DNA of 59,656 bases, filler included, from Sanchytrium tribonematis (Eukaryota), in assembly GCA_018985235.1 (NCBI GenBank). It is 5 parts of 5 records of this genome, joined end to end, with 100 filler letters (N's around TTAATTAATTAA, not from the genome) between each part and the next. Parts side by side here need not be neighbours in the genome. Positions count along the whole stretch, not along the records: positions 38,913 to 45,769 come from JADGIG010000488.1; 4 more parts are not named here. One strand, written 5' to 3'. A model generated the notes under the pieces. The model did not search any database and had not been told where the DNA came from. It was given only the letters and a program-made list of their open reading frames with translations. Every line of letters begins with the position of its first letter. The first letter of the stretch is position 1. Below are positions 13,118 through 52,300 of the stretch, piece by piece. Position numbers and translations under genes: made by a program.

Positions 13118-16100
13118 ATGAGTCGCTTAGCGTTGGAAAGAGCTCATTTAGATAGTCCAGAAATAAGACAGCAGTTATCGGATGGGCATGATAGAATCAA
13201 ACAACTAAATGGTATTGCTACCAAGCTGAACAATTTAGTCAAGGGTGTAACAAACCACATCGAAGAACTGGGTAACCAATTAACCGAATTCTCTTATGAA
13301 TTGACTGATTTGTTGAATTTTGAGCGAGAAAATTGGTTCACTATGGAGGAAAGAATTTCAACTCCTACCATGTCTGCCAAAAAGGTGACCAATCGTGGTA
13401 ATAAAACCAGTAATGGTGGAAATGCTGTAGATTTATTGTTTAATACGATTTCTAGAATGAATCAATGTGCGCGAAGTATTCAAGATCAAAAAACTAATGT
13501 CGAGAAAATTAGAGACGATATAATTGCACCTTTAAATTCCTTTAGCTCCCAGGTAGAGCAACTAGAGCATGTCAAAGCTCAGGTTGAAATCAATAGGCAG
13601 AATTATGAAATCCAACTTGACAAATTCTGTGGACTTTCAAAAAAAAAAGAAGAGAAAAAAACAATGCACAAAGATCAACTTATCAAAATCACAAATGCCC
13701 AGAACGACTACTTTTGTAGCATAATAGGGTATATGGGCAAGGTAAATATGATGAACCAAAAAGAGGGGCTTTTTTTACTTGCTAAGGGAAATACTTTCTT
13801 ATCTATATTAAGTCAATGGTCAAATCAATCATTCAACTACATTTCATCTGCTAGTCATTCTATCACTGATGTTTATGAGAAGTGTAATCAAGCAGATGCA
13901 GACCGGCCTGTGGATGATCTTGAGCTATTTGTCAATTTAAATTTGGCCAAGCTGCCAAAGTTTGAACAGGACGACATACAAAACGACTCTTTAATATTGA
14001 ATGATAGAGGTTATAAACACGGTTACTTGAGATTTCGTGCAAGAGGTCGAAAAGAATGGAAACGAAAATATTTTTATATTCAGAAACCAGAAGGTTTATT
14101 GATGTGTATTGAAACCGGTGAAAGCAGCATCATGGTCGCTGACATTAAAACATCTATGGTTCAACAAGCTGATATTGATGATAGATATAACACTTTTCAG
14201 ATAATCTGTCCCCCTCATTCTTTAATTGCTCTGCAAGCGGAGTCACAAAAAGATTTGAAAGAATGGATGAAAACTTTTAGGGCAATTCAGCTTAGTGATA
14301 CTGGTTTAGAAAAGCATGAGCTAAATGCAATCAGGGTCTCCACAGAATGGACAGCAGAGATTGAAGATATGTTATCTGCTGCATCAAACGTAGCATCAGT
14401 GATTCAGCAAAATTCTAATTTAGGAAGGAATTCATCGCTTTTGAGCAGAACAAATAAGCATATCGAGCAAGACCATATAAATAGTGTTCTAAAGGAAACC
14501 GAATTGATCAACATGAATGTAGGTTGCTGTGAAATCAAATCTCAAAAGTGGAAAGGGAAACTGGCGACCATATTGGCTTCGGGATACTTTAAACTTTGTA
14601 CACATCCTTCTGAGAAGAAAGAGGAACCAGCAATAATATTAAAGATATCCGATATTCCGATGGAGATGATTATACCAGTGCATCCAAGTCTTTTTGATAG
14701 AAAGCATGTGTTTTGCATCAAGTACGGTACGAAGATTTTTTATTTAAAATGTGATGATGTCGAAAAGTATATAAAATTAAATTATTGGCTAAAACACTTT
14801 TCCATCAAGCCATCCCCAATATTGATCGGGAGTGAGTTCATCCCAGTTAGGACATTACGTCACTTGGTGATAAAATTGATAGATGGGCGAAACTTTTTAA
14901 ACAGAGGAGATTTTTATTGTACAATTAGTATTGATAACATACTATTAGCAAGAACATCATTTATAGAAAACAATCTAGATCTTATCATAAGAGAAGAGTT
15001 TAAATTTGACGAATTTCCTGCTATTAATTTTGGGGTTACAATTTCAGCTTATGATACCACTAGATTTGCTAAAGACCAGAGATTTGGCCGAGTGTTTGTG
15101 AGAGCCTCAAAATTAAAGTCCGAAAAAGAAGAAGAAGACTATTACCAGTTGGTTTCAGGCGAAGACAAAGACGAGGATCTAGCAAGAGTATCTAATTTGG
15201 GTGAAATACACATTAAATGGAAATACCAAGAAATTAATGTATTACCCCTGTCAAAGTATAATCATTTACTATCTCTTATGAATTCATTTGATTATGAGCT
15301 TTTAAAAAGCCTTTACAAATCCGCATTTGATCTAGAACCACTCTCTCACAATTTGTTAATGCTATATATCTCTCAAAATAGAGAAATAGAATGGTTCATG
15401 TTTTTAATCGAATTTGAAACTAAATCAATAGGTTATTTTCACTCACTTAGATTCAAACACTCTTTTTCGTGGGAACTCATTATTGACAAAAGCACTGGAG
15501 ATTTATCTCAAAATAATATGCTTCGATTTTTTAGATAGTTGCGTTGGTGGATTTGTGAAAATGCTAATAGAGAATGACATATATTTAGAAGTAGATCCTT
15601 TAAGAGTTGAAAAGCAAGAAGTTTTGCAACACAATTGGAGCCAGCTAATTGGATTTACTGAGACGTTGTGGTTGAAACTATTTCAAACCAGGAAAGGTAT
15701 TCCTATGAAAGTTGTTTTATTGCTGCAATTCATAAGAGAAAAAGTTACGGAACAACTGAGTGAAGAAAATGCTAAATTTCTATCAGTTAGTGCATTTTTC
15801 TTTTTACGATTAATATGTCCCTCTTTACTTAGTCCTAAGTTATTTAATCTCACAAGGGTTCATCCTTCCCAAAATTGCCAAAGAACCTTGACATTGATAG
15901 CCAAATCGCTTCAATCTCTGGCTAATTTGAGCATTTTGGGTGCTAAAGAACAATACATGAATCCCATGAACACATTTATAGAATCAAAGTTTAATGACAT
16001 GAAGCAATTCTTAATAGACGTGTCGACTTGTGCCACACCAATTCGCCCACCAACTTTGAACATGAATGATGATATCCACACAATTGAATTAGAAAATCAC

Positions 16101-18759: not shown

Positions 18760-21082
18760 ATGATTAACAACGTTTTACAGAATATATTGTCTGCAAATCG
18801 CGTCCTTATTGACAAAAAGCTTTACTGGCTAAATGGCGTTAAGGCTCCATTGGACTTCAAGGATCCACACTTTTTTGAGGCCAGAGAATTTCTTCGGAAA
18901 TTTGTTGGGTTACAGATAAAATTTGATGTTGTTTACGAAAAAGAAAAAAACATTTACATTGATTTGTACCTGCCAAAATCTGGGGAATTTGAATTGGTCA
19001 ACGCTTATCTTGTTAGACAGGGATTTTGTTCCGCAATTGGAAAAGGATATGAAAACGAGGAAAATTTGGCAAAAATTGAGAAACTCGGAATTCATGGAGG
19101 ATTTTCCGGTATTTCGCCTAAAGAAGAGATTCCGCCTGGTAATAATTTTAACGGAATGATAGAACGAGTTTTGCCCAAATCCGTTTTAATTAGGGCGATA
19201 ATTGACAATAAGCACTTTCTTTTTCAGGCCATGTGGTCTGGTGCAAATTTGAATGACAAAGCTCGAGATTTTTTGGAGTTTTTTCTAATTTTGAAAACAG
19301 TGAGCATTTCAGTTGACTCTAGAGAACCAGCCAGAGTTACGATCAATCACTCAAAGGGAAATGTGAATTTGATTTTAATTGAAAAGGGCCTGGCTACTCC
19401 GGACTTCAGAACTCCTTTAAAGTGGCTGCCTATTGATAAAAAAGACGCCAAAAGAGGCCTGAAATTAACAAAAATATTGCACGCACAAGCTTTTGAGATA
19501 TCTGGGGAATTATTTTATCTTAATGGCATAAGGATCCCTAAGGAAATAGATCAAATTGACGCACAAGATCTTCTACGACCCTTTATTAATCAGTCCTGCT
19601 CTTACACTGAGGAAAAAGTATTAACCATAAATGATCAAGTTAGAAGTTACGGTGTACTTTATATCGAATCGAGGAAAATTTTCCCAGCAAAATTATTGGT
19701 CGAGAAAGGTTTAGCAACAGTTTTTCGACCAAAAAAGGATGAGCAACCTACAAGCATCTATTCAGATTTATTAGAGCTCGAAAGCAAAGCTATTAAAGAT
19801 AAAGTGGGGATTCATAATCCAAATTATAAGCCGCAACCTTACATTGATGCAAATGAAAATTCTTCAAAAGCTAAGTCGTTTCTTGGCCAGCTTCAAAGAA
19901 GCGGTAAAATTCAGGCTGTGGTAGTATTTCAAATATCTCCGACAAAGTTAAAGTTGCGTTTGCCAAAAGAACGATTAGTCGTGATTGCAAGTTTAGCTGG
20001 AATAAGGACGCCATACTCTAAAGTTGGCAACGAGTACAATGCCATTAGCCAAGCAGCTGGTAAATTTGTTAGCAATGCATTAACAAAAGACATTACAATT
20101 GAAATAGAAGATATTGACAAGTCTAATGCATTTACCGTCAATCTTTGGGTACAAACAAATCTTCTTTCTCAGCAATTAGTGGAGTTAGGCTATGCTACTG
20201 TCACTTCAGAGTGTAAATATTATAATACAATTAAAGCAGCAGAGAATATTGCTTCTGCCAAAGGTATAGGACTATGGGCACTAGAGAAGAAGATCGAGGA
20301 CCATACCCCAAGATTGTGGAAAATTCAGATTGAAGGGATTAAATGTTGTGTGACAGAATATAATGGAGAGGGAGAAGGCTTCATTCAAATTGTAAACGAT
20401 GATATACATAAATTAGGTGAAATTACTAATATTTTAAATAACTCCACATTAAATACAGCAAGTACCCTTAATGGATTAGTAGCAGCTAGATCTGAAGATG
20501 GTAAATTTTATAGAGCCAAAGTTATAAAGAAACTAAATGAAAAGGCGCTGGTTCGATTTGTAGATTTTGGAAATGTACTTTTTAATAATATAGACCGAAA
20601 ATGTTCTTCTTTCTGATATCAAAATAATTCCCGAGGAGGTTCCAAAGATTCCCGAGCAAGCCAAGCCATTCAAGTTATCATTCGTAGATTTGCCTGCATT
20701 GCCTGATAGATATGGTGCAGAAAGTGGCAAGAAATTTTCCGAATATATTGGAAAAGATTTGGTAACTGCCAATGTTGATTCTATTCAAAATGGAGTGCAT
20801 AATCTTACGTTTTTCCCAAAAGAATTACCCAATGTTACAATTGACATAAGCACAAAAAAATATGCCGAGTCCATTGGAATGCAGTTCAAATTATCCGTCA
20901 ATGCGATGCTTGTATTTGATGGTCTAGCATACATGAATTCTTTTATATACAAGAAAAGTACATCGCTCGAGGGCTTAGCGGACAAGGAAGAAGAAATTGT
21001 AAAATGTCTAAGCTCTTATCAAGCTGAAGCTAGGAGAAAAAGAAAATTTCTTTGGGAGTTTGGGGACTTTTTGGAATATTAA
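18760..21082 (+). CDS. SND1: Tudor-staphylococcal nuclease (Tudor-SN); exons 18760-20574 and 20594-21082
   Basis: Repeated SN domains, Tudor DGKFYRAKV...FVDFGN-TE after splicing, terminal LWEFGD. Confidence 0.88.
20575..20593 (+). other. 19-nt intron GTACTTTTTAATAATATAG
   Basis: Removal gives the Tudor motif VDFGNTENV and joins the downstream ORF. Confidence 0.92.
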
Positions 21083-36427: not shown

Positions 36428-38009
36428 ATGAATTCCTCTATTGCAGTGGACCTTAAATTAAGTTGCCAGGGTCTTAAAAACAAAGACACATTCAGTAAGA
36501 GCGACCCATATATCGTGGTGTTCGAAGATTCTCGGATATTGGGGAAGACCGAAATAATCAAAGACAATTTATCCCCTGCGTTTACCAAATCCATTCAGCT
36601 GGATTATTATTTTGAAAAGGTGCAAAAGCTTCATTTTGAAATTCGTGATGATGATGGGAATGAAAAGTATGATCATCTGGGAGAAGCTAAAGTGGTGCTC
36701 TGTGACATCGTCACTGCAGGACCTGATGGGTTTGAGGTGCCAATTTTGATAAATGGAAAATCTCACGGAAAGCTAAAAATCAAGGCCCGAGAAATCAAAA
36801 AAGAAATGTTAAATGCATATGTAAAATTTTCTTTGAGTTGTACAAAATTGGATAAAAAAGATTTATTCGGAAAAAGTGACCCTTATTTACTTTTGTTTAA
36901 AATTGACAAAGATGGAAGTTTGAACAAGGTTCATAAAACTGAAATAATCAAAAATACGTATGATCCAAATTTTCAGTCATTTAAATTACCACTTTCTGAT
37001 GTCGGCGAGGAAAAAGTACGACTGGAATGTTGGGATTGGGACAGAAGCTCCAAGGATGACATAATCGGTGCATGTGAATTCAATATGCAAGACTTTAAAA
37101 GTAAGGATGAGTATTCAGAGATTGAACTCTTCAATCCTACAAAAAAGAGTGGCAAAAGAGCCGGAATTTTGATAATTAAAAAAATTTATATACATAAAAA
37201 TTGGTCATTTATAGACTTTATACAATCTGGTACGCAATTGTGCTTCTCGGTAGCAATTGATTACACTGCAAGTAACGGGGAAATGGACAAACCAGGATCG
37301 TTGCATTATGTTGGTTCACAAAATCAACCTAGCCAAGTTCCCACTTTATATGAACAAGCAATACAAAGTATTGGAGGTATTTTAGAATATTATGATAACG
37401 ATAAACAGTTTCCATGTTATGGATTTGGTGCCAAATTTCCAAATGGAAAAGTGTCTCATGATTTTCACTTAAATTTTAATGACAACGATCCAAATGTTTT
37501 AGGTGTTCCAGGAATTTTAACTGCTTATCGAAATTGTCTAATGAATGTCAGGCTCTTTGGTCCTACGGTAATATACATTAACATAGAATTGCGCACCTAT
37601 TATTCGCAAGATGATTAGTGTATGCAAACAAGAAGGAAAAGGTGCAGAGAAGTATTTTATTCTATTGATTTGTACAGATGGGGAATTAACAGATATGGAT
37701 GAGACAATTGAGGCAATAGTCGATGCTTGTGGAAGTCCTTTATCAATTGTGATTGTAGGTATTGGAACCGCTGATTTTGGAAAAATGAAAGTATTGGACG
37801 GTGATGAGGAAGGACTTAAGGATAAAAAGGGTCGGGCAGCCTCCAGAGACATTGTTCAGTTTGTTGCCATGAAGAATTATATGGATTTAAATGCCATAAA
37901 TGTACAGCTGCCCAGTGATTTACTAGCTGAGGTTCCAAAACAACTTCTTGACTACATGCAATTAAGAGAAGTAGGTCCAGTTTTTGAATTACCACCTGGT
38001 GAATTGTAA
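36428..38009 (+). CDS. Copine (C2-C2-vWA); exons 36428-37567 and 37587-38009
   Basis: Two KSDPY C2 domains, AIDYTASNG, spliced GPTNCAPII, RDIVQFV. Confidence 0.93.
37568..37586 (+). other. 19-nt intron GTAATATACATTAACATAG
   Basis: Restores the copine GPTNxAPII motif. Confidence 0.93.
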
Positions 38010-38912: not shown

Positions 38913-39458
38913 TCGTTGCTCGAATTGGATCAATGGGAGTAGAATATCAGTGATTTGACCACCTACAACACGTCCCTTCTCATTATACTTGACATTGAAG
39001 AGTAATCCACTATTTGGAGCAGATTTGGTAGTAAATGCTTTGAAAATGGTTAATGATGCTTGTAATTTAGAGTGCACCTTCTCATCTCTCTTGGTTGCTT
39101 GTAGAGGTGCGCCTAATTGACATAAATAATCTAGGGAGTGTTCTAAAACCAATTGTTTCCCTTGAACATCCTGGCCATTCAAGATAATAGACTGGTCTTT
39201 GCCGGTTCTGCGTAATCCGAGATAGGCTCTATTTAACAATGTGAATAAATGATCATCTAGCCACTTATTCCCCGTGCTATCTTTGTATCCTTTGAGATAA
39301 TCACTCGAATCCGGGATTTGGGTGATTCCACTGGCGAGTACCACTCTGGTACCTACTCCAATGAATGAGTTGGGATTGGATTTCAACTGTAATGCCACTT
39401 GTTCCTTGTTGATTTCATTCAACTGCAGCAAATTAGAACATTTTTTGTTCTTTGGCAT
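38913..39458 (-). CDS. Myosin motor-like N-terminus, probably of a class V/VII chitin synthase (truncated)
   Basis: LNRAYLGLRRTGKDQSIILNGQDVQGK resembles chitin synthase myosin-like domains, with a degenerate P-loop. Confidence 0.65.
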
Positions 39459-39955
39459 TTGTCAGAGGGGGAAGAGACGGTGATCTGATCACGTTCGATG
39501 AAAGGAGAGACACGATCCAATCATGTGTACAGGGGATGAGTTGATAACGTATGATTGATGGTAGAAATGAAACCTATAGGTTCGATCACGTTGATTCATT
39601 GGTGAAGAAATGATAAACTGAAATTGGATGGCGCAATCCATTATTTTAGAGGGTGTTTCAATGATTATTTGTACCATTTTGAGGTATCACAGGCCATTAA
39701 TAGGACTACAATGTGTGAAATGACAATATTTTGACATGAAATGAGTGATCCTTGCACATTATGAACGGTATGATCACTTTGTCGCAATTTGGAGAGTTGG
39801 GTGCGTCATGATGAGTCACAATACGGTATTCTGTGTAACATGGTATACATTAAATAGTTTGTGACCTAAATAAGACTCGCTGACCTATTATTCCTGTTTT
39901 AAATGCGATCAAAGATGATTAAAAGTCGATTTAATCTCCGTGAAACTACAGTCAA

Positions 39956-40569
39956 ATGTCTCGAGTTCAATTGTTGGGATGGATCAATGGAATTACTGGT
40001 GCGAATTGCACAAAGATAGAAGATTTGGGAAAAGGGGATGTCTATTTACAATTATTTGCAGCTTACTTCCCAGAAACACCTATTGCAAAAGCCATTATTC
40101 GACCAAATCAAGAATACCAATATCGTCAAAATTGGAAATACTTGCAAATTATATTTGATAAATACCAAATACCAGTAGCTGTGAACGTTGAGAAGCTTGT
40201 AAAGTGCAAATTTCAAGATAATGTGGAATTCTGCCAATTGGTGAAGAAGTTTCTAGATGGGGAGAATGCAAATCCATCTCCTCGTGTGACTCATGAATCC
40301 GCTAGCAGTGTATCTAGCACACGTATTGAAATACTCATCTAGGTCAACGAAACACTTCTAAACCAAGCAGAGCCAATAGTGGTGTATCTACTAAAGAAAG
40401 AGAGACATTAGCAGCATTAGAGCAAGAAAGAGACTTTTATTTCTCAAAATTGCGTGAAATTGAATTATTATGCCAATCAGTCCCCAAAACTGAATTCGTT
40501 GATCAAGTATTGGAAATCATGTATAAAACACAAGAGGGATTTGCAGGTCCTGATGAAGAAACCTTTTAA
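39956..40569 (+). CDS. BIM1: EB1/Bim1 microtubule plus-end binding protein; exons 39956-40322 and 40343-40569
   Basis: CH domain MSRVQLLGWIN...KFQDNVEF; spliced LEQERDFYFSKLREIE and EETF tail. Confidence 0.94.
40323..40342 (+). other. 20-nt intron GTATTGAAATACTCATCTAG
   Basis: Removal joins the CH domain to the EB1 C-terminal domain. Confidence 0.92.
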
Positions 40570-40624
40570 TAAATGGATTTCTCCTAACCATCTAAAAAGT
40601 TCTCCAGTCCACCTTTGAAACAAC

Positions 40625-41281
40625 ATGTTGAAGGAAATTCTTTTGACCACCGTGGGTGTCTTCACCATTTTAATCACCATCCGATATAGAAATAACGCGG
40701 TCAAACCATCTAAATCCAACAAGAAAGACCCCCCTACTGACTCTACAGACTTGGGAGCGAATCTCTCTATGGATTGGTCTACGATTCTCCCAGACGCGTT
40801 AAGCGAGTCCAAGCAAATATATACGGATGTTGACCATTCCTCTAACTCTGTACATTCAGGACATTCAGTGAATCACCCATCGAATCATTCAGATCAACTG
40901 AATCGAGTCAATAGACAAAACAAATCAGCAAACCATTCTAGATCCAGTTCACGCTCATCCAAGCAATTTAAAGGCAAGGTACGTTGTAAATACTTTCCAG
41001 ACTGCAAATATGACAAATGCGTCTTTCAAACAACAGTTCCAAATGACCCTAAAAATCCTCAATTTTGTGATTTCTGGCATCCTGACATCAAATGCAATAA
41101 AAACAACGAGTGCCAATATGAAAACCATTGCATGTTTTACCATGACAAGGACTTTTTAATTGAAAATAGACCATTTCACGCGTCTAAATCAACTGGCGGT
41201 AAACGAGTGCAATCTCTTGAAGTATTATTAGCTCAAAATGCAGACTTGAGCAAACTAAATGATCCGTATGTGGATTTATAA
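40625..41281 (+). CDS. N-terminal TM protein with CCCH-like zinc fingers
   Basis: Hydrophobic N-terminus; CKYFPDC...C, CDFWH, CNKNNECQYENHCMFYH. Confidence 0.65.
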   Translation: MLKEILLTTVGVFTILITIRYRNNAVKPSKSNKKDPPTDSTDLGANLSMDWSTILPDALSESKQIYTDVDHSSNSVHSGHSVNHPSNHSDQLNRVNRQNKSANHSRSSSRSSKQFKGKVRCKYFPDCKYDKCVFQTTVPNDPKNPQFCDFWHPDIKCNKNNECQYENHCMFYHDKDFLIENRPFHASKSTGGKRVQSLEVLLAQNADLSKLNDPYVDL

Positions 41282-41458
41282 TAAATGCGATTTATTAGTT
41301 GTTAAACAGTCAGATTTCCCATTAACCAATCAAAATGAGATCAAGTTGATTGGCTAGCCAAAGCATCTAGCAAGAAATTAATTAAATGAGATTGGTTAAT
41401 AATTAATCAGTAAATCTTGCTTTCCTATTTAAATGGAACCAGCACCCATTATTACCAG

Positions 41459-41833
41459 ATGCTTTCTTTCTTCACAATCTCAGCAGTTCCATCATATTCA
41501 AAAACAGATACTATAGTTGTCAAAACGTATGGTAAGCCAAAGCACATTGTCTCAAAACAAATTGTTCCCAAACTCGACTTGTACTGTGCTGTATCGCAAT
41601 GGACCAAGAGCCTTTTTTGTACCAACTACTCCGATCAAAAGAAATGGTATAAAATTCAAGTCAGTAACGTCGATTTTGTTGCAATTGATGTGGATAATGA
41701 TCATAAAGTATGCGCATATATATTATTTTCAAAGGGTAACCCTGATGAATTGCCAGCTTATACTACAAAATGTTTTACAATCCAAGGAAACAAATTCAAT
41801 GGAACAGATGCTGCAACACAAATTCCAAAATAA
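41459..41833 (+). CDS. Small secreted Cys-containing protein (family member 1)
   Basis: MLSFFTISA signal; paralog at 45585-45769 supports that it is coding. Confidence 0.7.
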   Translation: MLSFFTISAVPSYSKTDTIVVKTYGKPKHIVSKQIVPKLDLYCAVSQWTKSLFCTNYSDQKKWYKIQVSNVDFVAIDVDNDHKVCAYILFSKGNPDELPAYTTKCFTIQGNKFNGTDAATQIPK

Positions 41834-41846
41834 AACAATTTGCCAT

Positions 41847-43579
41847 TTATTGCGTAATTCTTTCCATCATCTCTGTATCCCATCCTACTATTTTGATATG
41901 TTCAATAGAGGTAGGAAATTGAAAATTAAATGCGTCTTTTTTCAATGATTCAATATTCCCATTCATCAAATACTGTCTCCAAATCAAATCAAATCCGGTG
42001 TGTTTATTTTCATCCACATGTCCCATTTCTGGAACATTAGAGCGTAAACCATTTACAAATACATCCACAGTATCTAAATGCAATGGCTTGTGGTCTAAAT
42101 ACTTTCCCAAATCCAGCAACATCTTGAATTGATCCTTGCTCTTTTTCGATTCCAAATAAAATGCTGTAACACGCTTTAAATACTCATTATAAAGTAATAC
42201 AAACAAGACATCTTGCCTCAATGCTTGATAAGCTCTGTGAGTGAATTTTGAAATCAATTTCTCATGAACTGTCATTTGAAACAATTTCACATTTTCAGTC
42301 AAATAATCCAAAATACACATCATTTGGGATGAACAACATGGATATTTAATAGTATCCAATGCAGAATAGATCATATTGCTAATATCTTTGACATATTTCT
42401 TGTTTGATTTGACATGTTCCTTGTTGAAATATTCCAATAATGATTTAATGCAAATGGGATGCAATTTAACATTATTCGCTAATTGCACTCTTATTTCCTC
42501 GTAATGCATCCATTTACATGCATGTTGAACAAATGATTCTGCGATCATGGCATAATCTGGATCTCGATCTTGAGATGCTTGATTTAATAATTTCACATAT
42601 TTCTTGAAATAATGACCATTTTCAGACATTTCATTTAAAATCTGGGGTTGTTCATCTACTTTACGGTACATGTACTTGTCACATACGCTAATTGTGAGTC
42701 TGTAGTCCATCAATACTTGCTGCATGACGCCTACCACATCTCTGAGAAAATCCAATTCACGGCAATAAATATCGTAATTATCATTACATCTAATGATTCT
42801 CATATAGTGCTTGTCAATATCATACTCTTCCAATGTTGTTTGTAATTTATTGAAAATATGGGCATCTAATTGAACTAAAATCAAGTCTCCAATGAGTGAA
42901 ATAATGTCAGATCCAGTGGGAATTCTAAATGTAACACTGTGATGTGACATTCTCTTACTGCTGTATCAAGCGCAACAGCCCATGATCTGGAGGCTGTATT
43001 GTTTTGAGAATCTTGAAAATTTTGATTCGCTTCTTGAATATTCTTAAATGTCAAAGAGTCCAACATATGGGTGTAGACTGAGCCATAGAAGTTGCGTATG
43101 TCAAATCTACAGGTGTAACGACCTGCGAATGAATCTGTCAATTCTTTTCTATATTCCTTGATACCATCATTGCTGGTAGAAAAGAGATGAAAAATCTTTC
43201 TTGATTCTTTCCAAGCCGTTGTAAGACTTTGAGGATTTAAAGATATATCATTGGTGCTTAAACACTCTTCCATTTTCTCGCAAAGCAACTTGTACTTAAA
43301 GGGATGGATTAAATACATGAAAATGGGAGTGTCTTTGTATTTGTAGTGGATAAATGGGATTGGACGAGTAAAACTAACTTCTGATTCATTTTCCTGAACA
43401 ATATTTTTAGTCTTAAACTTGTTTGGCATGACATTTGGAAAATAATAGCCCTTAAATTTAAAATTCACCTGTCCACTTGAAGAAGCAGCTTTAGCATCAA
43501 GGTGATTCCAGAGATCTATTTTAGAATCATGGTGCTTCAGTTCTAAAATTGGTGGAGATGTTGATTCATCTGATGACAT
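41847..43579 (-). pseudogene. Bacterial Abi/UG-type reverse transcriptase homolog, frameshifted near 42945, degenerate active site
   Basis: GYYFPNVMP, HPFKY, FDIRNFYGSVYTH, LDTAVREC/(fs)/HSVTFRIPTGSDIISLIGDLIL, RCNDNY at the YxDD position, helical C-terminus; about 576 aa if rejoined. Confidence 0.75.
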
Positions 43580-43612
43580 TTGAGGAGAACAAAGAAGGTT
43601 TTAAAAAATAAT

Positions 43613-44911
43613 TTATTTCTCAAAAATACATCTCATTTCAAAGCTTTTTCGATTATTTTCCAGTTCTATTGGTAATTTCTTTTTGAAATCATGTAAATCT
43701 ACTGCTTTATGACCTAATTCTAGTGAATCAAACCATAATATATCACCAAATTGCATTTTATCCCAAATACACAAATCATGTTTCTGTCTACCAAAATGTA
43801 AAAATGGGTCATTATGCGTCAATTTACGTTGTAATCCCAAATCACGTTTAAAATCAGCTTCAGTTAATGGTTTTTTCATAAATCCCAGTGGATAATTAGA
43901 AACGGGTCCATTTTGAAGAGGCGCCCATAAATTGACCATTGTAAATTGTTGTCTGACATCTTCAGCAGATTTTTGCATAAATGGTTTCCAATAATTGACC
44001 ATCTCGTTATATTTCTCTAAATAAAGTGGATTTGTGGGGTCTTTTTGCAAATAATACATCAATTGCTCAATTTGAAAATCAATATTGACTCCAAATCGTT
44101 CTCTTAGTGCTGGTGCACCATCAATATGGTACGGATTCCCTAAATACCCTGCATAGTTAGATTGTGATGCAATGCTACCAGGATTTGGTGGAAATCTGAA
44201 ATTGCCACTCGTACAAAGCACTTTTTTGTTAAATTTAATTTTCAATAAATCACTAATAACGAGTCCCAATTGGAAATTCAAATGCTCGGTCTCGCTCTTA
44301 ATCGTGTGGTCTTTTCTATTATAGTCATAGTCATCTACATGATGCTTGATTTCTGCCAATATTTTCAATAATTGCAATTCCAATTTCCTAGATGGATTGG
44401 ATTCTGTTCGTATGGCTTGATTGAGTCCATCTCTATCTCTAAATCCGTCTTTATATGTATATTTAAATGCTTGTAGGACATCTCTATAAGAAATAGCCTC
44501 AAATTTATCAATTAATAAATTGGATGGATTGATATTTGGATCAATATCTACTAAAGTAATTTGCCGATGCTTGATATCAGTCTCATCAGGATTCTGTTGA
44601 TGGTGGATTGTAAATAAGTCTGATTTAATGGGATCTTTAATGACTGGATTATTAAAATCTGAATTTTCAAATTTTGGCAATGATCTTAAAAGGGGCTTCG
44701 TGGATGATGTTGCGTATAATCTCGAATTTCTTGATTTGGAATATCTAGCAGTGCGGTACATGACATCACTGTCTGGTAACTGACGAAATGAGCCAGTTCT
44801 CTGTGGTACTGAGGGTTGATTCAATGGAAGAATACTAGATTTTAAAGGGCTGCTCTGAGAAATATGCGTAATATCAAATGCATTCACAATACCTATTAGT
44901 ATTTGAATCAT
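43613..44911 (-). CDS. CmcJ/NvfI/AsaB-like 2OG-Fe(II) oxygenase with long N-terminal extension
   Basis: HID, VNLWAPL..PVSNYPL, MQFGDILWFDS, HKA, RKSFEMR. Confidence 0.7.
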   Translation of the reverse strand: MIQILIGIVNAFDITHISQSSPLKSSILPLNQPSVPQRTGSFRQLPDSDVMYRTARYSKSRNSRLYATSSTKPLLRSLPKFENSDFNNPVIKDPIKSDLFTIHHQQNPDETDIKHRQITLVDIDPNINPSNLLIDKFEAISYRDVLQAFKYTYKDGFRDRDGLNQAIRTESNPSRKLELQLLKILAEIKHHVDDYDYNRKDHTIKSETEHLNFQLGLVISDLLKIKFNKKVLCTSGNFRFPPNPGSIASQSNYAGYLGNPYHIDGAPALRERFGVNIDFQIEQLMYYLQKDPTNPLYLEKYNEMVNYWKPFMQKSAEDVRQQFTMVNLWAPLQNGPVSNYPLGFMKKPLTEADFKRDLGLQRKLTHNDPFLHFGRQKHDLCIWDKMQFGDILWFDSLELGHKAVDLHDFKKKLPIELENNRKSFEMRCIFEK

Positions 44912-45250
44912 TAAAAAGATGGACTTGTACGCTTATAAATGGACCATGACGAGATATCAATTACCAAATATTTAATCATGTAAAAGATTGATTGGTCAAC
45001 GTTGCAGGGGAATGTATAAAATGATGTTATAATTTTGCACTGCAAAATAATGGCGAGATATTGCTCAAGGATGATCTTTTGATGACTCATCACGCCATGT
45101 CGATTTGAAACGATTATCTGCCACAAATGACTCGATTTGTGACCTGGAGATTGAAATTGACACCCTACATGGTATATCAATTTGCCACTCAGCCACATGT
45201 CTATAAAATGTGCCCTACTTAATAGATCGAAGCCCATCTGCAATCAAAAC

Positions 45251-45592
45251 ATGTTGAATTTGCCATTTCCAGAAAGAACTTATGAAGACAGATATTTGAC
45301 CCCATCCCAGCCTATTGTATTACAGAATAGTGATGAATATAGGGAATTATATCAGTATTATGAGCAATTGTGCTGTTTGATGTTGGATGAGGATCCTTAT
45401 AAAATCGATTGGTCAGAGATTCGAGAATTGGCCGCTATGAAAGAAACCTTAATAGACTATGTGTTGAATGTTGACAGGAGTTTGTCATTGCCGGAAGTGA
45501 TGGGCATGATGTATCATTACAGTGAACAGCTTAAAGTGGTCATCCGAAATCGATTAGCCGAAGAAGCAGCAATAAATGCAAGTTTTACTTAG
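45251..45592 (+). CDS. Hypothetical protein
   Basis: ATG ORF with protein-like composition; no family recognised. Confidence 0.5.
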   Translation: MLNLPFPERTYEDRYLTPSQPIVLQNSDEYRELYQYYEQLCCLMLDEDPYKIDWSEIRELAAMKETLIDYVLNVDRSLSLPEVMGMMYHYSEQLKVVIRNRLAEEAAINASFT

Positions 45593-45769
45593 GAATTTCG
45601 GCTGCATCCTTTTTACCATTAAATGTACCATGGATGGTAATACATTTAGATGTATAGGATGGCAATTCATTCTTATTTCCAGCACCAATTAATTGTAATG
45701 CACAAATCTGGGGAGAAATAATTGATAATGAATCTACCTCATCAAATGGCATTTTAAACCATTCTTTGG
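45585..45769 (-). CDS. 3' end of small secreted protein paralog (family member 2), truncated by contig end
   Basis: KEWFKM...ICALQL...GNKNELPSYTSKCITIHGTFNGKKDAAEIPK* vs KKWYKI...VCAYIL...GNPDELPAYTTKCFTIQGNKFNGTDAATQIPK*. Confidence 0.8.
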
Positions 45770-45869
45770 NNNNNNNNNNNNNNNNNNNNNNNNNNNNNNN
45801 NNNNNNNNNNNNNTTAATTAATTAANNNNNNNNNNNNNNNNNNNNNNNNNNNNNNNNNNNNNNNNNNNN
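45770..45869. other. Artificial contig linker
   Basis: 44N-TTAATTAATTAA-44N. Confidence 0.98.
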
Positions 45870-49363: not shown

Positions 49364-52300
49364 ATGATAATCAACTTAACATCAATAATATTTCTAACGA
49401 TTCTATTATACATCATTACTCAAAAAAGTCCACAAGACAGTGCTTATTATGCAGAGGGGAAAACAAGTAATCTAGATCGTAAAACAACAAAATTCAAATA
49501 TGTTTACGCAATATTACTATTTATAATCTCAGCACTAGAATTTTCAAAAATGAATAGGGCAAATATTTTATTAGGATTTATAGTATTAACATTGAGTTTG
49601 ATTATACTTTTTTACCAATTTGCATCTCATAAAGTAGGAACCCTATTTTTAGCATCAGTAATTCTCATTTTACAGAGTGCATATACCATATTCTGTAATA
49701 AGTCGGTTGGCTATTTGAGACCAATACAATTCACAGAATTTGCAATATCATGTATTTTTGGCGTTTTTTCAATTCAACATTGGTGCTTTTATGGGCATAA
49801 ATACTCAACAGTAGACAATAGCAGCCTTCAAGAAAAACCCATGCGGGAGCTTGATGCTAGCATATTTGAATTAGCTACATTTAAGTGGTGTTCGCCACTT
49901 TTGGAAGCTGGTTATAATAATTCATTGAACATGGAGGATATTTGGGACTTGAATCCTGCAGATAAAGCTGAAACCAATGCAAATATTTATAAATCAATCA
50001 AAATATATTACCCTGATACTAGGTTTGTTTTCAAATTATATCATTCTGTCAAATATATTTTAATTGAGCATGTTGCTTTTGCCATTTGTGGTGCTTTATT
50101 AACATTCAGTGGACCGTTTTTCTTGAATAGAATATTAAATTACTTGCAAAGTCCTAATTCATTGCCATGGCAATCTCCCTATATTTATTTGATTTTTATG
50201 TTCTCCTTAGCAATATTTAAAAGCGCACTAGATGGTCGTGCGTACTTTTTGGGTAGGCGGATCGGAATTCGAATACATGCGATTTTAATTGGTGAAATTT
50301 ATGAAAAAGCACTCAGAAATAAATCCACTCAGGTGCACTGCGAGAATGCAAATGGCAGCGAAATTGAACTAACTCCTGGTGAAGTTATTAATTTAATGTC
50401 TATAGACGCTCAAAAATGTTCAGACTATGCGTGTTATTTGCGAAAGCTAATCACAACACCAATGCAAATTGTAATTTGTACAATTGCGCTATTTACATAT
50501 TTGGGATGGCCTGGATTATGTGGGATTTTACTCATGTGTATTATAATTCCTTTTCAAAAATGGCTTGCGCGAATCTTAAAATATCAGCAACAACATCTGA
50601 TGAAAAAAACAGACAGCAGAATTACCAAAATGAATGAAATATTGCAAAGTATCAGAATCATCAAATTTTTTGCCTGGGAAAAGAAATTCGAAAAATCTCT
50701 GCTTGAGACAAGAGAAGATGAGTTGAATTGTTTAAGAAATTTCTTGCTGACTGTTGCATTAATGACAATAACGTACCATGCGATTCCTATTTTGGTCAGT
50801 TTGTTAACTTTTGTGACATATGCGAAGCTTGTTGGAGGTATATTAACCGCAACAAATGTTTTTACCACAATTTCTTTATTCTATACGCTACGAATGCCAT
50901 TTTACGATTTTCCAGACCAATTTGTAAAATTTTTCGAGACTAAAGTGAGTGTTGAAAGGATATCAAAATTTCTTGAACAAAATTCGCCGCAAGAACAATT
51001 TGGAGAAGATTACATCGGATTTCAAGATGCTTCCTTTAGCTGGCAAAATGGAATGTCGCAAGATAATACTGGATTTGCACTAAGCAATTTAAATATCAAA
51101 TTTCCTAAAAACAAACTCACTGTAATTATAGGTCCTACTGGTTCGGGAAAGTCTTCTTTACTTAATGCTCTGCTTGGAGAAATGTGCATATTGAGAGGCG
51201 AGTATTCCCTTTCCAAAACATCTGAAGGAGTTGCATATGTTCCTCAACAGGCCTGGTTGATAAATGCTTCCGTTAAAGACAATATCACCTTTAAAAATGA
51301 TTACAACGATGACAAATACAAAAAGACTTTGCACGACTGTGCCCTTATTAAAGATTTGAAAATACTGAAAGGCGGCGACAGCACCGAAATAGGAGAAAAG
51401 GGTATAAATCTATCTGGAGGTAAAATTATTTTACTTAGGTCAAAAGCAAAGAATAGCATTGGCAAGAGCTCAGTATAGCGATAAAAGAGTAGTGCTGTTA
51501 GACGATGTCTTGCGTGCAGTAGATCCCCCAACTCAAAAACATTTATTCAATAATTGTATTATGAATGGATTAGCGCATAGAACCAGAATTTTGATAACTC
51601 ACTCTGTGTCGTTGGTTTTGCCTAAAGCAGACCATATAATTGTGATGAGAGATGGGGAAGTGTTTGCTCAAGGCAATCTTGAAAAAATTAGAGACGCACT
51701 AAGCACTGAGGATCTCAAGCTATATGAGATACCTTCCACAGATTTATCAACAAACATGGATTTGAAATTTTCTAAACCAGATCAAGACAAAATTTGTTCT
51801 CTGAAAGAAAATAATATTAATTTTAAATTAATACAAGAAGAGGAAAAAGCAACTGGCGAACTGAAATGGAGCGTCTATTTATATTACTTATCGGTGTCTG
51901 GTGGATTTATCGTTTGGGTCTGTCTCGTTTTGGGAAATTTACTATCTCAATTAATGAATATCGGGCAAGACTATTGGCTTAAAAGGTGGGCCACAGCGTA
52001 CATATCAGTTAATTCATTTAATGATGATGGTTTAGAAGAGAAGAACACTGTGGATGTCGACTTTTATATGATTAGCTATATTGCAATAGGACTCGGGAAT
52101 ATTTTAGTTCAACTACTTTTTTTGGTAATACAATTTTTTGCTTCCATTAAAGCTTCTAGAGAAATACACAAAGTCCTTTTACAGCGAATTTTACGAGCCC
52201 CTGTGTCATTTTTTGACAAAACACCGCTGGGTAGAATTATTAATCGATTTTCGAGCGATATTCAGGTTGTAGATAGGGAAATAAGTTCTGTCTTAAGCAA

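What the first reader, a model, noticed from the sequence alone, without database searches (positions are those of the whole stretch)
41847..43579. Bacterial Abi/UG (antiphage)-type reverse transcriptase embedded in a eukaryotic contig
Seen: two overlapping minus-strand ORFs together give, in order, GYYFPNVMP, HPFKY, DIRNFYGSVYTH, LDTAVREC, (R)IPTGSD-ISLIGDLIL, RCNDNY and a helical C-terminal region, about 576 aa in total. Established: DIxxFYxS(I/V)YTH, GIPxG and RYxDD plus a C-terminal helical domain typify bacterial AbiA/AbiK/Abi-P2/DRT-type RTs rather than LINE, LTR or telomerase RTs. I see no endonuclease, RNase H or integrase. The same contig carries EB1 with a 20-nt intron and a myosin-like chitin synthase fragment, which argues against simple bacterial contamination. 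Inference: a horizontally acquired defence-type RT family in this eukaryote, with possible intact copies elsewhere in the genome.
Basis: partly seen in the sequence, partly recalled or inferred. Interest (0 to 1): 0.88.

Follow-up and report, generated by a model that had tools for sequence, protein, structure and literature searches.

The report
Bacterial antiphage RT family in fungi
A fungus-like microbe carries, among its ordinary genes, a relative of bacterial anti-phage reverse transcriptases (Abi-P2/DRT4 type) that is frameshifted on one allele and whole on the other, and it belongs to a small family, also present in two sanchytrid fungi, that has lost three DNA-synthesis residues but keeps the residue pair DRT4 uses to cut RNA, so it likely acts as an RNA-cutting or sensing protein rather than a normal DNA polymerase.

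Summary
Confirmed, and more than reported. The two ORFs are one class 1 UG/Abi RT gene (RT plus alpha-Rep) in a fungus-like genome with 19-20-nt introns; its codon use matches the host's. The one public run holds both alleles: the window's is frameshifted, the other reads as one open 576-aa frame with a canonical ETxGIPxG motif. Nearest relatives are four sanchytrid proteins and three unassigned metagenome proteins. All 8 form one clade (100/99), sister to Abi-P2 (98/94, 98/92; AU tests not decisive). A member's model matches DRT6, Abi-P2 and DRT4 at Z 20-22. 'CNDN' is not decay: xxDN is fixed in 8 of 8, the fingers Arg is lost in 8 of 8 and the palm Lys in 6 of 6, against 32-33 of 33 bacterial rows. 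DRT4's RNase His/Asp pair is kept (His 8 of 8; Asp/Glu 8 of 8). Best reading: an old bacterial transfer, now likely polymerase-crippled and possibly an RNA-cutting defence or death effector. Function is untested. My paper searches found no report of the family.

The parts
41847..43579 (-). Class 1 UG/Abi RT-family gene (RT fingers/palm plus C-terminal alpha-Rep helical domain); frameshifted allele in the window, one 576-aa frame on the second allele
42947..43579 (-). N-terminal part (frame A): fingers, motif A R-F-D (D149 equivalent at 43102-43100), Y-T-H (H160 equivalent), L-D (D192 equivalent)
42926..42944 (-). Allelic break: a cluster of indels and substitutions that shifts the frame and spoils the ETxG motif in the window allele; canonical in the second allele
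41850..42923 (-). C-terminal part (frame B): IPxG, motif C, motif D/E region, alpha-Rep domain with family motifs DY, HP, QxxxIL
42774..42791 (-). Motif C read R-C-N-D-N-Y: first Asp kept, second Asp is Asn, Tyr lost; the DN is fixed across the family
   Evidence: this stretch lies in a contig shared by both alleles
43613..44911 (-). Upstream neighbour, weak match to the CmcJ/NvfI oxidoreductase family; 33 nt separate its stop from the RT ATG; one X1 contig spans both genes
   Evidence: E 1.4e-4, far below cut-off; record 4: 43056-43942
41414..41833 (+). Small Cys-containing ORF downstream of the RT; an inverted paralogue lies at 45585-45821 (-), so the pair brackets the RT block
   Evidence: (74% over 109 nt)
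39956..40569 (+). EB1-like host gene (identified by eye; weak CH_2 hit) with a 20-nt GT-AG intron at 40323-40342; marks the eukaryotic context

Best explanation
This is a chromosomal gene of a fungus-like eukaryote, frameshifted on one allele and whole on the other, that belongs to a eukaryote-held clade of class 1 UG/Abi (Abi-P2/DRT4/DRT6-like) reverse-transcriptase proteins, likely gained once and long ago from bacteria, and it likely no longer works as a normal DNA polymerase but is predicted to keep the back-to-back oligomer and DRT4's His/Asp RNase site, so it would act as a nucleotide- or nucleic-acid-gated RNA-cutting defence or cell-death effector. Shown: the gene, both alleles, host-like codon use, family membership, fold of a family member, the fixed loss of D241 (to Asn), R75 and K274 equivalents, and the kept D149, D240, H160 and D192(D/E) equivalents. 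Inferred: the single transfer (about 0.85), a crippled polymerase (about 0.7), an RNase/defence role (about 0.4-0.5 given the rest). Proposed working: the subunits pair through the ETxG segment as DRT4's two trimers do, which brings the His residues together at the RNase site; the relic palm (two Asp plus family-invariant Lys/Arg) binds a nucleotide or nucleic-acid end as the switch in place of self-made ssDNA; RNA cutting then arrests the cell. The frameshifted allele is a null that segregates in a divergent haplotype block.
For: Alleles. pN/pS between alleles is 0.37 on 34 of the 41 SNPs (the 40 listed minus six at or beside indels), with a synonymous excess at p 0.005, so the protein was under purifying selection for most of the alleles' history. 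Host integration: GC3s 0.29-0.30 against 0.26-0.35 in 13 host ORFs; codon index 0.71 and 0.76 against 0.67-0.76; all 30 depth bins covered, no loose ends. Family: of 10 hits among 1.84 billion representatives, one is self, three are sanchytrid, three are metagenome family members, one is a bacterial DRT4 and two are repeat artefacts; a fourth sanchytrid copy carries a ubiquitin-like domain. Tree. Fold of P0007 (pLDDT 85.8): DRT6 Z 21.9 (rmsd 3.9, 387 aligned), Abi-P2 21.0 (3.8, 379), DRT4 19.8 (4.5, 388), AbiK 16.7; G2L4 11.5, AbiA 11.3, and R2, telomerase and retron 9.7 or less. Residues: D241 is D in 33 of 33 bacterial rows and N in 8 of 8 family rows; R75 32 of 33 vs 0 of 8; K274 33 of 33 vs 0 of 6; H160 33 of 33 and 8 of 8; D192 D in 5 and E in 3 of 8. 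DRT4 needs D149/D240/D241, R75, N271/K274 and Y125 for synthesis (PMC12783706); H160+D192 form its RNase site at the trimer-trimer interface (bioRxiv 2026.10.21.760695). Predicted homodimer of P0007: score 0.75, best of 3 controls 0.00, runs share at least 66% of contacts, pLDDT at least 72. The mark was reached by 21 of 30 solved pairs and 0 of 23 single chains (eukaryotes 17 of 29 and 0 of 30). The interface holds the H160 and E202-T203-H204 equivalents; E202/H204 form DRT4's inter-trimer contact.
Against: No activity or expression data. H160 and D192 are kept in all 33 bacterial class 1 rows, including families with no reported RNase, so they may be structural; 3 of 8 family rows have Glu for Asp. 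K173, a DRT4 inter-trimer residue needed for defence, is kept in 31 of 33 bacterial rows and 0 of 8 family rows. In DRT4 the RNase depends on DNA synthesis, so a polymerase-dead version needs a new switch. The sister group is Abi-P2, which is a trimer in solution. The dimer pass may come from memory of solved DRT4/AbiK hexamers, and it and the fold are for P0007 (21% identical to the window protein), not the window's own protein; the good model used an alignment holding 19 bacterial rows. One Asp-to-Asn change left Ty1 RT with slow polymerase activity (PMC2148107 abstract). AU tests did not reject family+DRT6 (p 0.118) or a place outside class 1 with DRT8 and group II RT (p 0.073). Three of the 8 'eukaryotic' rows come from metagenomes of unknown host. 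X1 may be the window's own source, and its contigs hide small bubbles.
Confidence: 0.4

Rival explanations
1. The family is still a nucleotidyl transferase with a rebuilt active site: slow or Mn-dependent untemplated synthesis, or addition of one or a few nucleotides to a protein or RNA, with family-invariant basic residues standing in for the lost Arg and Lys.
For: D149 and D240 equivalents are kept in 8 of 8; family-invariant K80, R144 and R158 (second-allele numbering) and Lys at the DRT4-78 position in 7 of 8 lie in or near fingers and palm by alignment. Ty1 D211N keeps polymerase activity, 223-fold slower and Mn-preferring (that D211 is the second Asp of YxDD is recalled).
Against: Three residues nearly invariant in bacteria are lost together, as is the Tyr of YxDD in 7 of 8. 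No Tyr aligns with DRT4 Y125 or Abi-P2 Y61 in any family row; Ser or Thr priming is not excluded.
Confidence: 0.25
2. A domesticated pseudo-enzyme: an oligomeric scaffold or nucleic-acid-binding protein with no catalytic activity and a non-defence role.
For: Polymerase residues lost; K173 lost; H/D may be structural; one copy has gained a ubiquitin-like domain; at least three deep paralogous lineages at 20-51% identity.
Against: An unusual active-site pattern (RFD...DNY[DE]) is held invariant at 20-30% overall identity; a null allele segregates, which fits a dispensable conflict gene better than a core scaffold.
Confidence: 0.2
3. The gene is cargo or the engine of a selfish or viral element of these fungi, not a host gene.
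For: The RT block is bracketed by two inverted paralogues of a small ORF and is far more heterozygous than its left flank (89 vs 5 differences); multi-copy in Amoeboradix (3 copies).
Against: No endonuclease, integrase or transposase seen next to it; depth fits one locus with two alleles; two viral-contig scans with sub-family alignments gave no relative (close relatives only); Abi-type enzymes do not copy templates.
Confidence: 0.08
4. A recent bacterial insertion that is decaying, or a chimeric or contaminant join.
For: The window allele is frameshifted and lacks YxDD; the sanchytrid assemblies come from amplified, decontaminated material (PMC8371127 passages); the 41513-41571 step is not bridged by any of the 8 contig pieces listed (24 not shown).
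Against: The second allele is open; DN is shared by 8 of 8 relatives; codon use is the host's; purifying selection between alleles; even depth and no loose ends; nearest relatives are eukaryote-labelled.
Confidence: 0.04

Closest known systems
Abi-P2 (PDB 7r08; Figiel et al. 2022, PMC9508834)
   Same: Sister group in both trees (98/94 and 98/92); best PDB sequence hit for the family profile (E 6e-23); same RT plus helical fold (Z 21.0).
   Different: Abi-P2 rows all have RYRDD, the fingers Arg and the palm Lys; the family has xxDN and lacks both; no Tyr61 equivalent; the family is a separate clade on a long branch and sits in eukaryotic genomes.
DRT4/UG15 (PDB 9vdo, 9l9s, 21ou) and DRT6/UG12 (9wy8)
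   Same: Best PADLOC hits; shared N-terminal YFP..P and HP motifs; fold Z 19.8 and 21.9; H160/D192 RNase pair positions kept; predicted dimer uses the E202/H204-equivalent segment.
   Different: NCBIfam Drt4 score 42 bits against a 450 cut-off; D241, R75, K274, K173 and Y125 equivalents lost; family+DRT4 clade rejected (p-AU 0.022); no phage SSB trigger is expected in a fungus.
AbiK / AbiA
   Same: Class 1 architecture (Z 16.7 and 11.3).
   Different: More distant in sequence; AbiK is more distant in the tree and AbiA was not in it; no HEPN domain seen.
rvt genes (UG37), the known UG-related RT family of eukaryotes (PMC9226505 passage)
   Same: Chromosomal, non-retroelement RT-like genes with patchy eukaryotic distribution and a bacterial link; precedent for such a gene living in fungi.
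   Different: rvt has an N-terminal coiled coil per that passage, and is much longer with an intact motif (recalled); UG37 is not among the PADLOC hits of the window ORFs or of the family members, though I did not check that the library holds such a model; rvt was not in my tree.
TERT/PLE, linked to class 2 DRT10 (PMC12632851 passages)
   Same: A eukaryotic RT with a proposed origin among bacterial defence RTs.
   Different: Other UG class; RNA-templated; structural match only Z about 9.6 over the RT core.

Membership tests
UG/Abi class 1 RT | N-terminal RT fingers/palm with class 1 motifs (DIxxFYxSxYxH, LD, TxGIPxG) | tested here: met
   the TxGIPxG motif is whole on the second allele
UG/Abi class 1 RT | C-terminal alpha-Rep helical domain in place of the thumb | tested here: met
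   P0007 model aligns over 380-390 residues with DRT6, Abi-P2 and DRT4; window ORF B matches the family profile to position 406; the window protein itself was not folded
UG/Abi class 1 RT | Placement inside class 1 in an RT tree | tested here: inconclusive
   nested with Abi-P2 and DRT3b at starred support, but AU p 0.073 for a place outside; retron, LINE, LTR, TERT, PLE, rvt and AbiA rows were not in the tree
UG/Abi class 1 RT | Intact catalytic triad D...xxDD | tested here: not met
   second Asp is Asn in 8 of 8 family rows, Asp in 33 of 33 bacterial rows
UG/Abi class 1 RT | [quoted passage not shown] | not testable with these tools
   needs purified protein; residues argue against it
UG/Abi class 1 RT | Homo-oligomer (trimer or dimer of trimers) | tested here: inconclusive
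   two-copy model of P0007 passed (0.75 vs best control 0.00) but may reflect solved relatives; trimer not tested (size cap)
DRT4 (UG15) | Score above the NCBIfam Drt4 cut-off / inside the DRT4 clade | tested here: not met
   42 bits (ORF A alone) vs 450; p-AU 0.022
DRT4 (UG15) | Priming Tyr125, dNTP-binding R75 and K274 | tested here: not met
   0 of 8, 0 of 8, 0 of 6; R75 and K274 columns agree in the independent HMMER alignment
DRT4 (UG15) | RNase pair H160 + D192 | tested here: met
   His 8 of 8, Asp 5 and Glu 3 of 8; also present in all 33 bacterial class 1 rows, so not diagnostic of activity
Abi-P2 | Inside the Abi-P2 clade with RYRDD and a Tyr61-type primer | tested here: not met
   sister, not nested (Abi-P2 alone 99/95 and 98/97); motif and Tyr absent
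LINE/LTR/telomerase RT | Best sequence and fold match to these RTs; EN, RNase H or IN domains | tested here: not met
   none among the 12 PDB sequences at E 0.01 or better; R2 and TERT are listed at Z 9.7 or less against 16-22 for DRT6, Abi-P2, DRT4 and AbiK; no such domain in either ORF
rvt (UG37) | Phylogenetic grouping with rvt, N-terminal coiled coil | not tested
   no rvt sequence was in hand; the RT motifs begin at residue 46, which leaves no room for a long N-terminal domain

The most novel reading that the evidence does not exclude
The first eukaryotic class 1 Abi/DRT family: early-diverging fungi took up a bacterial abortive-infection polymerase, switched off its DNA synthesis, kept its interface RNase, expanded it into paralogues and use it as an innate-immune or cell-death effector, with null alleles segregating as in other conflict genes. 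It would also imply that the His/Asp RNase is the ancestral effector of class 1 Abi RTs in general.
Probability: 0.3. Interest if true: 0.92.

Novelty: new variant of a known kind. Interest (0 to 1): 0.8.

Why it matters
The main survey of UG/Abi RTs removed eukaryotic hits before analysis (PMC9226505), and these proteins miss Pfam RVT_1 (0 of 7 relatives, nor the two window ORFs), so the family is easy to overlook. It adds a reverse-transcriptase system to the short list of antiphage genes that crossed into eukaryotes. It is also a natural experiment: evolution removed the polymerase residues and kept the RNase-site residues, which makes it directly testable whether DNA synthesis and the toxic output of Abi/DRT class 1 enzymes can be separated, a question left open for AbiK and Abi-P2.

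Tried and rejected
No whole genome is held, so paralogues in this organism were not searched beyond the window (tblastn of the window: no second copy). Intron rescue of the frameshift: 18 GT/GC-AG candidates restore a frame, but each removes or spoils a conserved motif and none looks like the host's 19-20-nt AT-rich GT...TAG introns; rejected. Second-allele contigs as a separate paralogue: rejected because shared stretches (depth 43-59) are no deeper than the flank (67). Word-index protein searches with single ORFs found only self or nothing. Single-ORF PDB searches found nothing. Pattern scans of metagenome contigs, viral contigs (64, 65) and the first genome-contig scan (54) found no relative; these find close relatives only, so the DNA context of the three ENA proteins is unknown. 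GTDB searches (401, 133 and 400 genomes, overlapping samples from one phylum), plasmids and phages (55, 56, 60) gave only xxDD-type RTs among those fetched; other phyla are thinly sampled, so the donor is not identified. The ESM Atlas gave no answer. No RNA holder was listed. The first structure model (8 rows, pLDDT 52) was poor, though it ranked the same families first. P0008 and P0010 were dropped as repeat artefacts; P0013 as a near copy of P0009; L026, L021_2486 and L035_57 were left out of the tree; the two group II rows and DRT8 were also left out of the 33-row residue count. Earlier scan findings: none bore on this. Supplements were not read; a eukaryotic hit could be listed in tables of PMC12632851 or PMC9226505.

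Full report
Observation. The two minus-strand ORFs and every quoted motif are present. ORF A matches PADLOC Drt4 at E 2.5e-13 and ORF B matches AbiP2 at 6.2e-7. NCBIfam Drt4 hits ORF A at 42 bits, far under its 450 cut-off, and Pfam RVT_1 hits neither. The window is gene-dense and eukaryotic, fungus-like by gene content read by eye, with 19-20-nt introns. No whole genome is held. I did not try to name the organism; its two ORFs are in EukProt as separate proteins.

The break is allelic. One public run holds the stretch (X1, contigs only, possibly the window's own source). Laid on 38913-45769 it covers all 30 bins at depth 41-94 with no loose ends, and one contig spans the RT 5' half and the upstream gene. 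At the ORF junction there are two contigs: one identical to the window (depth 31) and one with 15 substitutions and a net frame change (depth 23). Applying those differences gives one open frame of 576 codons with a canonical ETxGIPxG motif, and the junction bubble alone is enough to open it. Whether the four bubbles lie on one haplotype is not shown. RCNDNY lies in a contig shared by both alleles that shows one synonymous difference; such contigs can hide small bubbles, so raw reads are needed. Between alleles pN/pS is 0.37 (34 SNPs, p 0.005). Codon use falls inside the range of 13 host ORFs. Contamination, a chimeric join or simple decay are therefore unlikely.

A family. phmmer of ORF A over 1.84 billion representatives gave 10 hits: self, two Amoeboradix gromovi proteins, one Sanchytrium tribonematis protein, three ENA metagenome proteins of unknown host, one bacterial DRT4 and two repeat artefacts. 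A profile search added a third Amoeboradix copy with a ubiquitin-like domain. Whether these are orthologues or paralogues of the window gene was not resolved; identities to it are 20-26%. A profile of the 7 relatives scores the second-allele protein 221 bits and the best bacterial protein 87.

Placement. With 36 bacterial reference RTs typed by PADLOC (the two group II-type rows had no PADLOC type and are my label), the 8 family rows form one clade (100/99), sister to Abi-P2 at 98/94 under LG+G4 (44 rows, 245 columns) and 98/92 under C20-PMSF (39 rows). AU tests reject family+DRT4 (p 0.022) but not family+DRT6 (0.118) or a place outside class 1 (0.073), so the sister is favoured, not settled. 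Retron, LINE, LTR, TERT, PLE, rvt and AbiA were not in the tree. The family profile finds 12 PDB sequences at E 0.01 or better: the first ten are class 1-type entries (Abi-P2, DRT4, DRT6, AbiK and one unnamed RT), then a Cas6-RT-Cas1 and a maturase. The AlphaFold model of P0007 (pLDDT 85.8, pTM 0.89; alignment of 28 rows, 19 bacterial) matches DRT6, Abi-P2, DRT4 and AbiK over nearly its whole length at Z 16-22, with AbiA at 11.3 and all other RTs at 11.5 or less.

The active site. The reference L008 carries the same residue numbers as E. coli DRT4 in the papers. Across 8 family and 33 bacterial class 1 rows: D149 and D240 are kept in all; D241 is Asn in 8 of 8 (Asp in 33 of 33); R75 is hydrophobic in 8 of 8 (Arg in 32 of 33); K274 is lost in 6 of 6 long enough (Lys in 33 of 33); Y238 is kept in 1 of 8; no Tyr lies at DRT4 Y125 or Abi-P2 Y61; K173 is lost in 8 of 8 (31 of 33). 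H160 is kept in 8 of 8 and D192 is Asp in 5, Glu in 3. In DRT4, D149/D240/D241 bind the metals, R75, N271 and K274 position the dNTP and Y125 primes (PMC12783706, parts 1-3 of 9 read). H160 and D192 form an RNase site between the two trimers (bioRxiv 2026.10.21.760695, passages and sections 3 and 6), and the RNase is dNTP-dependent (bioRxiv 2026.10.27.754916, parts 1-2 of 5 and passages). I did not see the primary RNase paper that both cite. AbiK D247N, the first Asp, is dead, and Abi-P2 primes on Y61 and is a trimer in solution (PMC9508834 passages). Ty1 D211N keeps slow activity (PMC2148107 abstract), so DN alone does not prove a dead enzyme.

Oligomer. Two copies of P0007 gave score 0.75 against a best control of 0.00 (runs share at least 66% of contacts, pLDDT at least 72; mark reached by 21 of 30 solved pairs and 0 of 23 single chains). 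The interface is symmetric and includes the H160 and E202-T203-H204 equivalents, the segment DRT4 uses between trimers. Like complexes are solved, so this shows likeness, not binding.

How it likely works. Shown: gene, alleles, integration, family, fold, residue pattern. Inferred: one old transfer from a bacterial class 1 gene near Abi-P2, loss or strong weakening of DNA synthesis, and retention of the oligomer with the His/Asp site as an RNA-cutting effector gated by nucleotide or nucleic-acid binding in the relic palm (0.4). Rivals: an altered transferase (0.25), an inert scaffold (0.2), a mobile-element gene (0.08), decay or artefact (0.04). The weakest link is that the His/Asp pair is universal in class 1, K173 is gone, and DRT4's RNase needs DNA synthesis.

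Novelty. Nine paper searches listed no report of class 1 UG/Abi RTs in eukaryotes; 'sanchytri' with 'reverse transcriptase' gave 0 papers. The UG/Abi survey removed eukaryotic sequences and names rvt (UG37) as found in eukaryotes (PMC9226505 passages). Term look-ups in PMC8371127, PMC12632851, bioRxiv 2022.12.12.520048 (127), bioRxiv 2026.02.16.706125 (128) and PMC8632793 showed no such family in the passages displayed; supplements were not read, and the library lacks most subscription papers. Verdict: a real, apparently undescribed eukaryotic variant of a known kind; interest 0.8.

Noticed in passing
window 40323-40342, 37568-37586, 51420-51438, 20575-20593, 15432-15450: The host has very short spliceosomal introns of 19-20 nt (GT...TAG); two are confirmed because their removal restores conserved motifs (copine GPTN, ABC LSGGQKQR). 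That is near the shortest known (recalled).
   Followed up: partly
window 41513-45769 vs 38913-41513: A strongly heterozygous block (89 allele differences in 4.3 kb) abuts a nearly homozygous one (5 in 2.6 kb) in run X1; no genome-wide baseline, and contigs hide isolated SNPs.
   Followed up: partly
window 41414-41833 (+) and 45585-45821 (-): Two inverted paralogues of a small Cys-containing ORF with a hydrophobic start bracket the RT, the CmcJ-like gene and ORF 45161-45592; higher depth and a contig that loops back at 45649 suggest more copies. No Pfam hit.
   Followed up: partly
window 43613-44911 (-): Orphan gene with a weak CmcJ/NvfI oxidoreductase match, directly upstream of the RT on the same strand; could be a second acquired gene.
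   Followed up: no
P0014 (Amoeboradix gromovi), residues 481-544: A family member with a ubiquitin-like domain after the alpha-Rep region (Pfam E 6.7e-9).
   Followed up: no
family alignment: Family-specific invariant Arg two residues before the motif A Asp (0 of 33 bacterial rows) goes with an invariant Asp/Glu two residues after the motif C Asn; possibly a cross-strand salt bridge beside the altered active site (inference).
   Followed up: no
window 40619-41281 (+): ORF with an N-terminal hydrophobic stretch and several CCCH-like zinc-finger motifs (by eye; no Pfam hit) between EB1 and the RT block.
   Followed up: no
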